A stretch of 60,564 nt of DNA from an uncultured Mollicutes bacterium (lineage in GTDB: Bacteria; Bacillota_I; Bacilli_A; Acholeplasmatales; Anaeroplasmataceae). A program made the position numbers and the translations under genes. This document shows positions 38,161-40,507 of this stretch, piece by piece. Numbering within the stretch: the stretch's first letter is position 1; every line of letters begins with the position of its first letter. The notes beneath the pieces are model-generated. The model worked only from the letters and a program-made list of their open reading frames with translations, was not told the origin of the DNA and searched no databases. The stretch covers positions 1 to 60,564 of the forward strand of contig CAMELE010000010.1 of the NCBI GenBank assembly GCA_945923475.1, given 5' to 3'.

Positions 38161-38961
38161 TTATTTCACAGGAGCCACTAAATTATAAATATTTTTTAAA
38201 CATTCAATCCAATATAATGCAGCATTTCTATCTACTGTATTTAGTCGAATTGTTTTAGTTTTAGTAAAATCATTTGGATCTGGAATTTCTACAGTCCAAA
38301 TTTTTATTGGATTCATTTTATTCTAATCAATATTTATACGATTTTGATTAAGATTATTTAAATTAGTAATAATTGTTTCAAATGTTTTATTTAATAATAA
38401 AGTAAATGTCATTTTACCATCTTCATCTTCGTTCCAATTATTAACTAATCCAGCTATTGTATTATCTCCAAATTCATTAATATAATCTTGATTTTTATAG
38501 ATTGTACTAATTTTTAAATTTTCAAATAGACGGAAAATAATCTTTTTTAAAGTATTAATATCATCACTTTCAGCAATACGAGATAGATGTAAATTTTCTA
38601 TTAATTTATTAACTTCTTCACTTGTACACCCATAATTACAATTGCCAACACATCCCGCAGAACAAGATCCTGAACAATGTTCAGCACAAGCAGTAGTGCA
38701 AGTTCCTGTACATCCTCCGCGGCAACTGTTTTCACAACCTGAACAAGTATTATCACAACCTGAACAACTATCAGCACAGCCTCCACAAACATCTTTGCAT
38801 CCTGATTTACAACCGTCTCCACAATGACTGGAACAAACAGCGCAGCCCGACATACAAGAGCTAAGTCCGCACCCGCTATCGCCGGACGTATTATCATTCT
38901 TATCTTGGCTTTTCTAACTAGTCCAACATTCGGTAGAACATCCACCATTATCACAAGCCAT
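38161..38961 (-). CDS. cysteine-rich repeat protein (266 aa) with a non-Cys C-terminal domain; two in-frame TAG
   Basis: ATG after GGAGGAATAATAT. The first ~110 residues hold >30 Cys in (S/G)GCxx(x)C repeats (CAVCSSHCGDGCKSGCKDVCGGCADSCSGCDNTCSGCENSC...). ORF 38323..38853 extends at both ends through TAG. Confidence 0.6.
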
Positions 38962-39159
38962 ATATTATTCCTCCTTCCATTTTATTAAATAATTATATTC
39001 TTCTTCTGGAATTAAATTATTTACAAAATCATAAGAGAATTTTTGTATTTCATCATATGATTTTTTATCATTAATTATTTTATAATAATACATTGCAGCT
39101 AATGCCTAAACTTTTAATTCTTCACAAATAGTTTTTGGATGTGAAGATAATTTACCTGT

Positions 39160-40266
39160 CTATTCATAACTGCATCCTAAACAATAAGAACAATTTTTTG
39201 CTATTGGGCAATTTAAACATTCATTATCAAAAATATTACAGCGTTCACATTTTTTAAACTCATTAAGCCATTTTTGTTCCTTAGCAGTAATACCAATACC
39301 ATGTTCTATATTACCGATAATAATTGGTTCTTGATTTAAAGAACTCTCCATAAATCTAATACAAGTATAAATATTACCTTTATAATCAAGAGCATACATA
39401 TTGTTTGATGTGCCGCACCAAGCTGTATGTCTTCCATCTTCGTCTAATGGTTTATAATTATCCGGTTCAAAAATGATAAAATAAATTTTATCTTGTAAAT
39501 GATTTTCTTTTATATAATTAGCTATTAATTTAAGCTAATTATAATATTTTTTGGCATATTCAGTATTCCACACATTTTCAAAAACACAATTAGCATGAAT
39601 TGCTGTAAAACCTAATTCAACCATATTTTTAAAACCAGCGAAAAGATAACTTACATTATCAGGACTAATTGTTATTTTTGTGCTTGGATTGCCATAATTT
39701 TTTAATTGATCTAGTGCAGCCGCAATAGCTAAATTATAACTACCTTTACCATCGGGAAATAATCGACATTTATCATGTAATTCTTTACATCCGTCTACTG
39801 TAATACTAACTGAAATACGTCCATTATATTTTTTAATATATTTCTAAACTTTGTCAGTAAAATATAATGTCCCATTAGATGAAAAACTATATACATGGAA
39901 TAAAGACCAACTATCATCAGGTTCTTCAGCAAAACGCTATTCGAAATATTCAGTTATCTATTCAATTAAATCTATTTGTAAAAAAGGCTCTCCCCCTATA
40001 AAATCAATAATTAATCCGATAGTATCTTCAATATAGAATGGAGAATTAGGTTTATGTTTACAATCAAAAATATAATCAATAAATTTTTTTGCTGTTTCAA
40101 AAGACATCGCATGAGTACCTTTATGGAATTGATAACAATATGAACAACATAAATTACAAGCATCAGTAACTTGAAAGGTTACCATTTTTGCTTTCTTATC
40201 TTTATATTGTGCTCCAAATAAAGTAGCAATATAGTTATTATATTCTAATGGACCTTTAATCATTAT
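39160..40266 (-). CDS. radical SAM enzyme with C-terminal SPASM/twitch Fe-S domain (peptide/protein-modifying maturase family; anSME/ranthipeptide-synthase-like)
   Basis: N-terminal VTDACNLCCSYCYQ (Cx3Cx2C). Middle ...FSSNGTLY... joins through about 3 TAG. C-terminal CERCNIFDNECLNCPIAKNCSYCLGC auxiliary-cluster cysteines. Start is MIKGP after AAGGAGG. Confidence 0.75.
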
Positions 40267-40507
40267 TATTCTCCTCCTTAAAAATAATCCGTAAATTAGC
40301 AACATCAATTTCATAATTATTATATTTAGTTATACCGAGTTTTTTAAATAATTGGAATTTGAATGTTGAAATATCCTTATAAGCTTTTATATATTCTTGT
40401 AAATAATAATTATTAAAGGTATTCAGATAGGAAGTCTTACGACTATTAGCTATAAAAGATAAACGAGCAAATTCATAAATAGTTTCTTTGTCTAAATTAA
40501 TAATCAA
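40256..40507 (-). CDS. hypothetical protein, first gene of the rSAM/Cys-rich operon
   Basis: 83-aa ORF. Confidence 0.35.
   Translation of the reverse strand: MIINLDKETIYEFARLSFIANSRKTSYLNTFNNYYLQEYIKAYKDISTFKFQLFKKLGITKYNNYEIDVANLRIIFKEENNND

What the first reader, a model, noticed from the sequence alone, without database searches (positions are those of the whole stretch)
38161..40507. Radical SAM/SPASM maturase operon with a 267-aa protein carrying an extremely Cys-rich repeat domain
This is a three-gene minus-strand unit bounded by strong terminators: an 83-aa ORF, then a radical SAM protein, then the Cys-rich protein.

The radical SAM protein has the Cx3Cx2C motif and a C-terminal SPASM/twitch cysteine cluster. 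The downstream protein has an N-terminal ~110 aa with >30 Cys in regular (S/G)GCx2-3C repeats interspersed with Asp/Glu/Asn/Ser/Thr, followed by a normal-looking domain.

SPASM rSAM enzymes (ranthipeptide and sactipeptide synthases, QhpD, anSME) install thioether or other cross-links on Cys-rich substrates. Here the putative substrate is a full-size phage protein rather than a short peptide. That points to post-translational cross-linking of a phage protein or a metal-binding module. I do not recognise this arrangement from described phage systems.
Basis: partly seen in the sequence, partly recalled or inferred. Interest (0 to 1): 0.8.

Follow-up and report, generated by a model that had tools for sequence, protein, structure and literature searches.

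The report
Phage radical-SAM system modifying Cys-repeat protein
A gut phage carries a three-gene set (small helper, radical-SAM enzyme, 266-residue protein with a cysteine every fourth residue) that is a phage-borne, protein-sized version of a catalogued but never characterised "CXXX-repeat" modification system, and its relatives in other phages sit among tail-fibre genes.

Summary
The unit (38161-40507, minus strand) lies between two terminator hairpins.

**What the parts are**
- The rSAM matches NCBIfam TIGR04115, "radical SAM peptide maturase, CXXX-repeat target family" (350.3 bits, cutoff 350). It has CX3CX2C and all seven SPASM cysteines.
- The 83-aa ORF is a remote relative of the accessory proteins found beside these enzymes (TIGR04116-like).
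- The 266-aa protein has 25 Cys in its first 112 residues, not more than 30. The repeat Cys are invariant or near-invariant in 42 homologues.

**How it differs from the catalogued peptide system**
- There is no leader, peptidase or exporter.
- A conserved domain always adjoins the repeats.
- In 76 of the 80 best phage loci, a CXXX-repeat ORF lies within 6 kb of the enzyme.
- In temperate relatives that ORF sits between tail-fibre and lysis genes, with swapped C-terminal tips.

**Best reading:** the enzyme cross-links the repeat region of a protein that stays intact, possibly a structural or fibre-type component. The thioether chemistry is inferred, not shown.

**Verdict:** a new variant of a known but uncharacterised kind.

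The parts
40644..40675 (-). Intrinsic-terminator-like hairpin (14-bp stem plus T-run) right after the upstream SPFH/flotillin-like gene. It marks the upstream boundary of the unit.
40256..40507 (-). orfA, 83 aa, TTG start, no in-frame TAG. A small accessory protein (beta, helical hairpin, two beta strands) remotely related to the accessory proteins that precede these rSAMs in other phages and prophages (TIGR04116-like).
   Evidence: ORF. (conserved position upstream of the rSAM). (hhalign probability 92%, E 6.5e-7, 79 columns against the accessory family). (one accessory member hits TIGR04116 at E 0.005, below cutoff). (AF2 pLDDT 91).
38965..40263 (-). Radical SAM/SPASM enzyme, 432 aa. CX3CX2C at C36/C40/C43. 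SPASM cysteines at C283, C301, C349, C352, C358, C361 and C380, plus G296. Six in-frame TAG codons (first bases at 39960, 39939, 39846, 39537, 39162, 39108; residues 102, 109, 140, 243, 368, 386). There is no N-terminal RRE-type extension.
   Evidence: TIGR04115 at 350.3 bits against cutoff 350, model positions 1-359 of 359. (Radical_SAM, Fer4_12). (phrog_1802). (invariant Cys, and TAG aligned with Gln).
38872..38961 (-). N-terminal 30 residues of the Cys-rich protein (MACDNGGCSTEC..., with a TAG at 38916). Variable in length and sequence among homologues. Repeat-like Cys already start at residue 3, so this is not a classical leader.
38626..38871 (-). CXXX/CXXC repeat region, residues 31-112, with 22 Cys. 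The commonest unit is C-[S/T]-G-[G/S/T]. GC is 46% against about 30% for the window. This is the presumed substrate of the rSAM.
   Evidence: (Cys invariant or near-invariant in 42 homologues). (faint PF27846 tSAM_targ_Cxxx_rpt hit on the 50%-identical homologue P0040).
38161..38625 (-). C-terminal domain, residues 113-266 plus the stop, with an in-frame TAG at 38325. A highly conserved 'CXXX-adjacent' domain carrying an insertion of about 45 aa. It is homologous to the tails of many small CXXX proteins, and through them to the N-terminal domain of prophage CXXX proteins.
   Evidence: conservation. (78 of the top 150 representative hits share the architecture). (hhalign 93.5%, E 2.3e-7, full length; prophage N-terminal domain against the same tails 96%, E 3.5e-9). 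(AF2 pLDDT only 56-73 here).
38103..38152 (-). Terminator hairpin (stem of about 17 bp) followed by UUUUUCUUUU. It marks the downstream boundary of the unit.

Best explanation
This is a phage-borne version of the CXXX-repeat radical-SAM modification system (NCBIfam TIGR04114, TIGR04115, TIGR04116). In it, the substrate is a whole protein rather than a leader-plus-core peptide.

**Proposed mechanism**
1. All three genes form one terminator-bounded, translationally coupled operon.
2. The operon can only be translated once TAG is decoded as Gln. This probably happens late in infection of an anaerobic Firmicutes-type gut host.
3. The SPASM enzyme, helped by the small orfA protein, acts on the 22-Cys repeat segment (residues 31-112) of the 266-aa protein.
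4. It most likely recognises the substrate through the conserved domain that always adjoins such repeats, because there is no N-terminal leader.
5. By analogy with every characterised SPASM enzyme that acts on Cys-rich substrates (PapB, CteB/SCIFF maturases, QhpD, sactisynthases), it most likely converts Cys thiols into intramolecular thioether bridges.
6. The result would be a redox-insensitive, protease-resistant cross-linked segment.
7. The product is not cut out or exported. It stays attached to its C-terminal domain and works as an intact modified protein.

Because relatives in temperate phages sit in tail-fibre modules and have tail-fibre-like modular architecture, a structural or adhesive, virion-associated role is the leading guess.

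**Shown:** gene structure, family assignment, conservation, co-occurrence, context in relatives.
**Inferred:** the thioether chemistry, recognition through the adjacent domain, late timing, and the structural role.
For: **Family assignment**
- TIGR04115 is the top hit, full length and at cutoff. All lower hits are SPASM peptide maturases.
- CX3CX2C and the seven SPASM Cys are invariant across 18 diverse homologues.
- The orfA family matches the accessory family (hhalign 92%, E 6.5e-7). An accessory member hits TIGR04116 weakly.
- The target-repeat Pfam family PF27846 hits the homologue P0040 faintly.

**Conservation and synteny**
- The repeat Cys are invariant or at least 90% conserved while the residues between them vary. 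The C-terminal domain is strongly conserved.
- The order SPFH, orfA, rSAM, Cys-rich protein..., PhoH is conserved in all close relatives, down to 49-50% identity of the Cys-rich protein.
- In 76 of the 80 best IMG/VR loci a CXXX-run ORF lies within 6 kb of the rSAM.

**Protein, not peptide**
- Repeats begin at residue 3 and there is no leader.
- Classic short-peptide loci have a Peptidase_S8 or ABC transporter gene directly upstream. Phage and prophage loci have none.
- The adjacent domain is shared by the window protein, by at least 78 representative clusters of small CXXX proteins, and by prophage N-terminal domains.

**Structural hint from relatives**
- Prophage and phage relatives place the CXXX protein next to several tail and lysis genes. 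These are Phage_tail_fib, Sipho_Gp37, collagen-like/Phage_tail_C and glycine-rich-domain proteins, just upstream of the holin or endolysin.
- In one group of roughly 60-kb phages the N-terminal domain is 97-100% identical, the repeats 83-93%, and the C-terminal tip is swapped (29-63% identity).

**Chemistry precedent**
- PapB forms Cys thioethers with a loss of 2 Da (PMC12373016).
Against: - No experiment exists on any TIGR04115 member that I could find, so thioether formation is only an analogy.
- PapB needs an acidic acceptor C-terminal to the Cys. Only 6 of the window's repeat units contain Asp or Glu, and no acceptor residue between the Cys is conserved.
- In this phage the unit is not in a recognisable tail module. 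Its neighbours are SPFH/flotillin-like, PhoH/PIN and an endolysin.
- The Cys-rich protein hits no structural PHROG.
- The AF2 model is poor (mean pLDDT 45, below 30 in the repeats) and has no fold match.
- The window protein itself does not reach the TIGR04114 repeat model.
- The 76-of-80 figure includes many near-identical phages, so it counts far fewer independent lineages.
Confidence: 0.5

Rival explanations
1. Classical RiPP or bacteriocin. The Cys-repeat segment is modified, cut away from the C-terminal 'follower' domain by a host or unlinked protease, and released at lysis as a small antimicrobial or signalling peptide.
For: - The enzyme family is annotated as a peptide maturase.
- More distant bacterial members sit beside 42-104-aa leader-plus-CXXX peptides with Peptidase_S8 or ABC transporter genes.
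- Phage lysis would remove the need for an exporter.
- The unit is often next to lysis genes. In this phage family an endolysin lies a few genes downstream.
Against: - No peptidase or transporter is present in this phage locus or in the phage and prophage loci I inspected in detail.
- There is no leader.
- The non-repeat domain is more conserved than the repeats.
- Relatives fuse the repeats to receptor-binding-type domains of 130-600 aa.
Confidence: 0.15
2. Metal- or cluster-binding module. The CXXX repeats act as a metallothionein-like or Fe-S/Zn-binding segment. The rSAM either is not directed at them or only prepares them.
For: - There are 22 closely spaced, conserved Cys with Gly/Ser-rich spacers, and no conserved acceptor residue.
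- The AF2 model is disordered without ligands.
- The only PDB sequence hits are weak and to Cys-knot-like domains.
Against: - The repeats are tightly linked to a SPASM maturase and its accessory across phage lineages, as assessed in the best 80 IMG/VR loci, and in bacterial and prophage genomes.
- The enzyme's nearest characterised relatives all modify Cys-rich substrates covalently.
Confidence: 0.15
3. The same enzyme and substrate pair, but a different chemistry. Examples are Cys to formylglycine or dehydroalanine-type oxidation (as in anSME), C-C or ether cross-links, or S- or C-methylation, rather than thioethers.
For: - The SPASM family is chemically diverse: anSME, cyclophane-forming and other maturases also appear among the lower hits.
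- The PapB-type acidic acceptor is mostly absent.
Against: - The best characterised hits (PapB at 184 bits, QhpD, the SCIFF maturase, RumMC) are thioether formers. The anSME and cyclophane families score far lower.
- The only conserved residues in the repeats are the Cys.
Confidence: 0.15
4. Not a functional unit: pseudogenes broken by stop codons, or low-complexity sequence that only looks like a gene.
For: - Under code 11 the rSAM splits into 118-, 79- and 42-aa pieces.
- The Cys-rich ORF is cut to 176 aa.
Against: - All internal stops are TAG.
- TAG read-through restores long ORFs across the whole window.
- TAG positions align with Gln in homologues.
- Full-length homologues exist on many contigs.
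Confidence: 0.01

Closest known systems
CXXX repeat peptide modification system (NCBIfam TIGR04115 rSAM maturase, TIGR04114 Cys-rich repeat target / Pfam PF27846, TIGR04116 accessory protein)
   Same: - The same three-part gene set and gene order around the enzyme.
- The rSAM reaches the TIGR04115 cutoff over the full model.
- The target has the CXXX periodicity.
- The upstream small protein is remotely related to the accessory family.
   Different: - It is phage-encoded and TAG-recoded.
- The target is a 266-aa protein with no leader and a conserved 155-aa domain, not a 40-100-aa peptide.
- There is no S8 peptidase or ABC transporter.
- The window's target and orfA do not reach the TIGR04114 or TIGR04116 HMMs.
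- I found no experimental characterisation of the system itself.
PapB/PapA (freyrasin) ranthipeptide system
   Same: - PapB is the closest experimentally characterised homologue (184 bits).
- It is a SPASM enzyme acting on repeated CX3-type motifs, forming one thioether per Cys with a loss of 2 Da.
   Different: - The score is well below the PapB cutoff of 340.
- PapB needs an acidic acceptor C-terminal to the Cys and a leader peptide. Here Asp or Glu are sporadic and there is no leader.
QhpD/QhpC (quinohemoprotein amine dehydrogenase maturation)
   Same: A SPASM rSAM (111 bits) that installs Cys thioethers in a protein subunit that remains part of a functional protein. This is a precedent for a protein substrate rather than an excised peptide (established knowledge of QhpD).
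   Different: - The score is far below cutoff (453).
- QhpC has only a few cross-links, to Asp or Glu, and is an enzyme subunit. Here there are 22 periodic Cys in a phage protein.
SCIFF / CcpM / Cys-every-fifth (CefB) Cys-rich peptide maturase systems
   Same: SPASM maturases paired with small Cys-rich precursors (hits of 113, 90 and 63 bits).
   Different: - All score far below their cutoffs.
- Those enzymes carry an extra N-terminal stretch of about 75-95 residues, judged by the model positions at which alignment to this protein begins. This enzyme lacks it.
- Their substrates are short peptides.
Collagen-like and other repeat-shaft phage tail fibres
   Same: In relatives the CXXX protein has a conserved end domain, a periodic Gly/Ser-rich repeat 'shaft' and a swapped C-terminal tip. 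It sits among tail-fibre genes upstream of lysis genes.
   Different: - No sequence or fold similarity to known fibre proteins was found for the window protein.
- In this phage the gene is not in a recognisable tail module.
- Virion association is untested.

Membership tests
TIGR04115 (rSAM peptide maturase, CXXX-repeat target family) | HMM score at or above the curated cutoff (350 bits) over the full model | tested here: met
   350.3 bits, E 1.5e-104, residues 25-393 against model positions 1-359 of 359. The score is borderline, right at the cutoff.
TIGR04115 (rSAM peptide maturase, CXXX-repeat target family) | Radical SAM CX3CX2C cluster motif plus the SPASM auxiliary-cluster cysteines | tested here: met
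   C36/C40/C43. C283-x12-G296-x4-C301. C349-x2-C352-x5-C358-x2-C361 ... C380. All are invariant in 18 homologues.
TIGR04115 (rSAM peptide maturase, CXXX-repeat target family) | Encoded next to a Cys-Xaa-Xaa-Xaa repeat target | tested here: met
   The target gene starts 4 nt after the rSAM stop. The linkage is conserved in relatives.
TIGR04114 / PF27846 (Cys-rich CXXX repeat target) | Match to the 18-residue repeat model | tested here: inconclusive
   - The window protein has no hit at E <= 1.
- The homologue P0040 has a faint precomputed PF27846 hit.
- The L057 protein scores 16.7 bits against a cutoff of 20.
- The CXXX periodicity itself is obvious: 769 of about 1000 short Cys-Cys gaps are CxxxC.
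TIGR04116 (CXXX repeat peptide modification system protein) | HMM match of the small upstream protein | tested here: not met
   - orfA and four orthologues give no hit at E <= 10.
- There is only an indirect link. The orfA family matches the phage accessory family by hhalign at 92%, and one member of that family hits TIGR04116 at E 0.005, 16.9 bits against a cutoff of 50.
PapB-family ranthipeptide maturase (NF047865) | HMM score at or above 340, and a CX3[D/E] acceptor motif in the substrate | tested here: not met
   The score is 184.3 bits. Only 6 repeat units contain D or E, and no acceptor is conserved.
RiPP (ribosomally synthesised, post-translationally modified peptide) in the strict sense | A leader (or follower) that is removed by a dedicated protease, and a released small core peptide | tested here: not met
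   - There is no leader, because the repeats start at residue 3.
- No peptidase or exporter gene is present in the unit or its flanks in this phage family.
- Whether cleavage occurs cannot be determined from sequence.
Sactipeptide/ranthipeptide-type thioether cross-links | S-C-alpha, S-C-beta or S-C-gamma bonds (loss of 2 Da per link) | not testable with these tools
   Needs mass spectrometry or NMR of the co-expressed protein.
RRE (PqqD-like RiPP recognition element) as the identity of orfA | Winged-helix fold with a three-stranded sheet and three helices, similar to PqqD | tested here: not met
   - The AF2 model (pLDDT 91) is a beta strand, a two-helix hairpin and two beta strands.
- Pfam gives no hit.
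Phage tail fibre / receptor-binding protein | Location in the tail module, similarity to fibre domains, presence in virions | tested here: inconclusive
   - Relatives lie beside Phage_tail_fib, Sipho_Gp37, Phage_tail_C or glycine-rich-domain proteins and have swapped C-terminal tips.
- The window protein lies between SPFH and PhoH genes and has no fibre-domain hit.
- Virion presence is not testable here.

The most novel reading that the evidence does not exclude
Phages of anaerobic Firmicutes use a dedicated radical-SAM enzyme to 'vulcanise' a virion protein. A ladder of enzyme-installed thioether staples in a Cys-every-fourth repeat would replace the disulfides that cannot form in an anaerobic cytoplasm. 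The result would be a rigid, protease- and redox-proof shaft in tail fibres or other surface appendages. The 266-aa protein in this window would be the jumbo-phage version of that shaft. This would be the first radical-SAM post-translational modification of a phage structural protein.
Probability: 0.3. Interest if true: 0.85.

Novelty: new variant of a known kind. Interest (0 to 1): 0.66.

Why it matters
**Why it matters**
- Radical-SAM/SPASM maturases are studied almost entirely as makers of small peptide natural products.
- This unit and its many relatives suggest that a whole branch of that enzyme family instead modifies full-size phage proteins with up to about 140 cysteines.
- The scale is large: more than 540 stretches in IMG/VR and 534 in bacterial genomes, the latter mostly Clostridia and, where I inspected them, prophage-like.
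- Many of these genes sit in tail-fibre modules.

**If the modification is a thioether ladder**
- It would be a new principle of virion protein stabilisation in anaerobes.
- It would be a new class of very large rSAM substrates.
- It would be a source of enzymes for stapling proteins.

**Practical points**
- The system gives a concrete function to test for a family (TIGR04114-6) that has sat uncharacterised in databases.
- Cultured hosts carry relatives (Desnuesiella massiliensis, Neglectibacter timonensis, Eubacterium pyruvativorans, Anaerobacterium chartisolvens), so it can be tested directly.

Tried and rejected
- **Fold of the Cys-rich protein.** AF2 with 42 homologues gave mean pLDDT 45. 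Foldseek against the PDB and an HMM search of PDB sequences gave nothing meaningful.
- **Direct homology of the window's C-terminal domain to other domains.** hhalign against the prophage N-terminal domain, the L013/L057 C-terminal domain and the L015 tail failed (probability below 1%). The link appeared only through the intermediate family of small CXXX proteins.
- **GenBank phage collection.** tblastn with the Cys-rich protein, with P0196 and with a prophage N-terminal domain found nothing. The best rSAM match was 35% identity to unannotated faecal phage contigs.
- **Pfam, NCBIfam and PHROGs for the Cys-rich protein and orfA.** No significant family.
- **Literature.** No paper was found on TIGR04115, CXXX repeats, phage rSAM RiPPs or rSAM with tail fibres. 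Haft & Basu 2011 is not held in the library.
- **The search for related loci with the small-CXXX-protein alignment.** It failed because no stretch was conserved enough.
- **Nucleotide- or cofactor-modifying rSAM.** Considered and rejected from the hit list.
- **Pseudogene or low-complexity artefact.** Rejected.
- **Overlapping 117-aa (38601..38954) and plus-strand 61-aa ORFs.** These are shadow ORFs of the GC-rich repeat.
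Full report
**1. What is in the sequence**

Under the bacterial code the region looks broken. The rSAM splits into 118-, 79- and 42-aa ORFs, and the Cys-rich ORF is cut to 176 aa. Translating the minus strand shows that one frame runs through the whole region and is interrupted only by TAG.

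Reading TAG as sense raises the summed length of ORFs of at least 100 aa in the window from 13.3k to 19.3k aa. It gives three tightly packed genes:
- **orfA**, 40507..40256, 83 aa, TTG start.
- **rSAM**, 40263..38965, 432 aa. Its ATG overlaps the orfA stop and follows AAGGAGGAG.
- **Cys-rich protein**, 38961..38161, 266 aa. Its ATG lies 4 nt after the rSAM stop and follows AAGGAGG.

TAG positions align with Gln in homologues: Q16 and Q213 of the Cys-rich protein, and the nearly invariant Q140 of the enzyme. So TAG is read as Gln. No suppressor tRNA lies in the window.

The unit is flanked by a 14-bp terminator hairpin at 40675..40644. On the other side is a roughly 17-bp hairpin plus U-run at about 38152..38103 (z = -4.95).

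The Cys-rich protein has 25 Cys in residues 1-112. Twenty-two of them lie in residues 31-112, spaced CxxxC or CxxC. That is 22% Cys, against 1.6% in the window's other ORFs. It is the only such run in the window.

**2. Identity of the enzyme**

NCBIfam places the enzyme in TIGR04115, 'radical SAM peptide maturase, CXXX-repeat target family'. The score is 350.3 bits against a cutoff of 350, covering model positions 1-359 of 359.

The next hits all fall far below their own cutoffs: PapB (184 bits), CcpM, QhpD, nif11-peptide, SCIFF and other SPASM peptide maturases. No nucleotide- or cofactor-modifying family competes.

An alignment with 17 diverse homologues shows several invariant features:
- C36/C40/C43 (CX3CX2C).
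- C283-x12-G296-x4-C301.
- C349-x2-C352-x5-C358-x2-C361 ... C380, which is a full seven-Cys SPASM domain.

Other maturase models begin aligning at their positions 70-95, whereas this protein begins at residue 20-25. So it lacks the N-terminal extension those enzymes carry.

**3. The small ORF**

orfA has no direct family hit. A 60-83-aa ORF occupies the same position in all close relatives. More distant phage and prophage loci have a 96-130-aa ORF there.

A profile of the orfA family matches a profile of those accessory proteins over essentially its whole length (hhalign 92%, E 6.5e-7, 79 columns). One accessory protein (L035) hits TIGR04116, 'CXXX repeat peptide modification system protein', weakly (E 0.005).

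**4. The Cys-rich protein**

It has 44 homologues, on contigs of up to 214 kb. The repeat Cys are invariant or at least 90% conserved, while the residues between them vary. The commonest unit is C-[S/T]-G-[G/S/T]. The C-terminal 155 residues are highly conserved.

Pfam's twin of TIGR04114 (PF27846, tSAM_targ_Cxxx_rpt) hits the 50%-identical homologue faintly. The window protein itself is not reached by the repeat model.

A profile search of 1.84 billion representatives found 271 relatives. Of the top 150, 78 are proteins of 140-301 aa that share one plan:
- They start directly with Cys repeats (MAC.../MSC...).
- A tail of at least 60 aa follows, which in most begins CN.GC[TS], then 15-25 residues, then 'DI..L...I..E..RRG'.

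The window's C-terminal domain matches these tails over its full length, with an insertion of about 45 aa (hhalign 93.5%, E 2.3e-7). The roughly 100-aa N-terminal domain of prophage CXXX proteins matches the same tails (96%, E 3.5e-9). The direct comparison of the window domain with the prophage domain fails.

So one 'CXXX-adjacent domain' accompanies the repeats on either side. It is a natural candidate for the element the maturase recognises, given that there is no leader.

**5. Co-occurrence and context**

The order SPFH/Band_7, orfA, rSAM, Cys-rich protein..., PhoH/PIN, then a CHAP/Amidase_2 endolysin further downstream, is conserved in all close relatives.

The enzyme family is large:
- 1575 proteins at E <= 1e-20.
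- 534 confirmed stretches in bacterial genomes.
- More than 540 in IMG/VR.

In the best 80 IMG/VR loci, 76 have an ORF with a run of at least 8 CXXX-spaced Cys within 6 kb. Many of these loci are near-duplicates.

The closest bacterial loci are mostly Clostridia, and the ones I inspected look like prophages. A CXXX protein of 140-554 aa (up to 144 Cys), the accessory protein and the rSAM lie between tail genes and the lysis cassette. Those neighbours are as follows:
- Tail genes: Phage_tail_fib and a collagen-like Phage_tail_C protein.
- Lysis cassette: Phage_holin_4_1, Amidase_3 and GH25+CHAP.

Two phage groups show this in detail.
- In a group of roughly 60-kb phages the gene follows Sipho_Gp37 and a 796-aa protein. 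Its N-terminal domain is 97-100% identical between phages and the repeats 83-93%. The C-terminal 127-183 aa are swapped (29-63% identity) or absent. That is the mosaic pattern typical of receptor-binding fibres.
- In a group of 95-177-kb contigs (plus one 36-kb contig) the repeats are fused to two ALK/LTK-type glycine-rich domains, beside a paralogous 803-aa protein.

The more distant bacterial rSAMs are different. They sit with 42-104-aa leader-plus-CXXX peptides and with Peptidase_S8 or ABC transporter genes. That is the classic RiPP layout, and it is absent from the phage loci.

**6. Mechanism**

*Shown:* the gene trio, the family assignment, the conservation pattern and the linkage.

*Inferred:* the enzyme cross-links the repeat Cys. 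All characterised SPASM enzymes with Cys-rich substrates make thioethers. PapB does so with a loss of 2 Da per link, and its regiochemistry is dictated by the substrate (PMC12373016). A PapB-like requirement for an acidic acceptor cannot apply generally here, because no residue between the Cys is conserved. Sactionine-type or relaxed acceptor chemistry therefore seems more likely if thioethers form at all.

The product probably remains an intact protein. A structural, fibre-like role is suggested by the relatives. It is not supported by this phage's own gene neighbourhood, nor by any fold or family hit.

**7. Comparison and novelty**

This is the CXXX-repeat modification system catalogued in NCBIfam and Pfam. 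I found no paper on it in the searchable library, and no description of phage-encoded versions.

It differs from the catalogued 'peptide' system in five ways:
- It is phage-borne.
- It is TAG-recoded.
- It has no leader.
- It has no protease or exporter.
- Its substrate is a domain-bearing protein.

I rate it a new variant of a known but experimentally uncharacterised kind, with interest of about 0.66. The most novel reading that remains open is radical-SAM 'vulcanisation' of phage structural fibres. I give that about 0.3 probability.

Noticed in passing
whole window; tRNAs at 58152-58225, 58486-58571, 60450-60524: - TAG is recoded (to Gln) across the window, but unevenly.
  - Genes between about 40.6 and 54 kb have almost no in-frame TAG.
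  - Others have up to 13.
- The only tRNAs in the window are Gly(tcc), Leu(taa) and Gln(ttg).
- No CUA-anticodon suppressor is present, so it must lie elsewhere in the genome.
   Followed up: partly
window 45932-48415 and 40674-42053 (minus strand): - The orthologue of the 827-aa protein in a related contig carries a major-vault-protein shoulder domain hit (PF11978).
- The 459-aa gene directly upstream of the unit is an SPFH/Band_7-flotillin protein.
- A vault-shoulder/SPFH pair is unusual cargo for a phage.
   Followed up: no
L015:2804-5146: In a 168-kb phage contig the homologous rSAM is 780 aa. An intein-like insert of about 350 aa sits right after the CX3CX2C motif (CPLRCSYC|VTAGT...VHNC|YQC). 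It is followed by a 338-aa protein with a shorter Cys-repeat run.
   Followed up: no
P0176-P0181 (representative-library hits, 1582-1803 aa): Very large proteins (about 1600-1800 aa) carry a C-terminal block of several hundred residues made almost entirely of CXXX repeats (9-13 matched stretches). In the one read (P0176), a long non-repeat N-terminal region precedes the block. Their genomic context was not examined.
   Followed up: no
L021:2410-2997: One 196-kb phage contig has two tandem accessory-protein paralogues (96 and 97 aa) upstream of the rSAM. No CXXX ORF turned up among the genes read within its 3-kb flanks, so the target may be encoded elsewhere.
   Followed up: no
window 38601-38954 (minus) and 38642-38827 (plus): 117-aa and 61-aa ORFs overlap the Cys-repeat region in other frames. 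They are shadow ORFs created by the locally GC-rich repeat (46% against about 30%) and should not be annotated as genes.
   Followed up: yes
window 37550 to about 38104 (minus): The gene after the unit is conserved as a 184-aa protein in relatives. Here it appears to start at a TTG (LIGEPIFNY...) just after the terminator U-run, and it contains an in-frame TAG. ATG-only ORF calling truncates it to 144 aa.
   Followed up: partly
window 5077-7362, 53354-54415: - By eye, the 761-aa protein looks like an anaerobic (class III) ribonucleotide reductase.
- The 353-aa protein has S-layer-homology-like repeats.
- Both would fit an anaerobic Firmicutes host.
- Neither was tested with an HMM.
   Followed up: no
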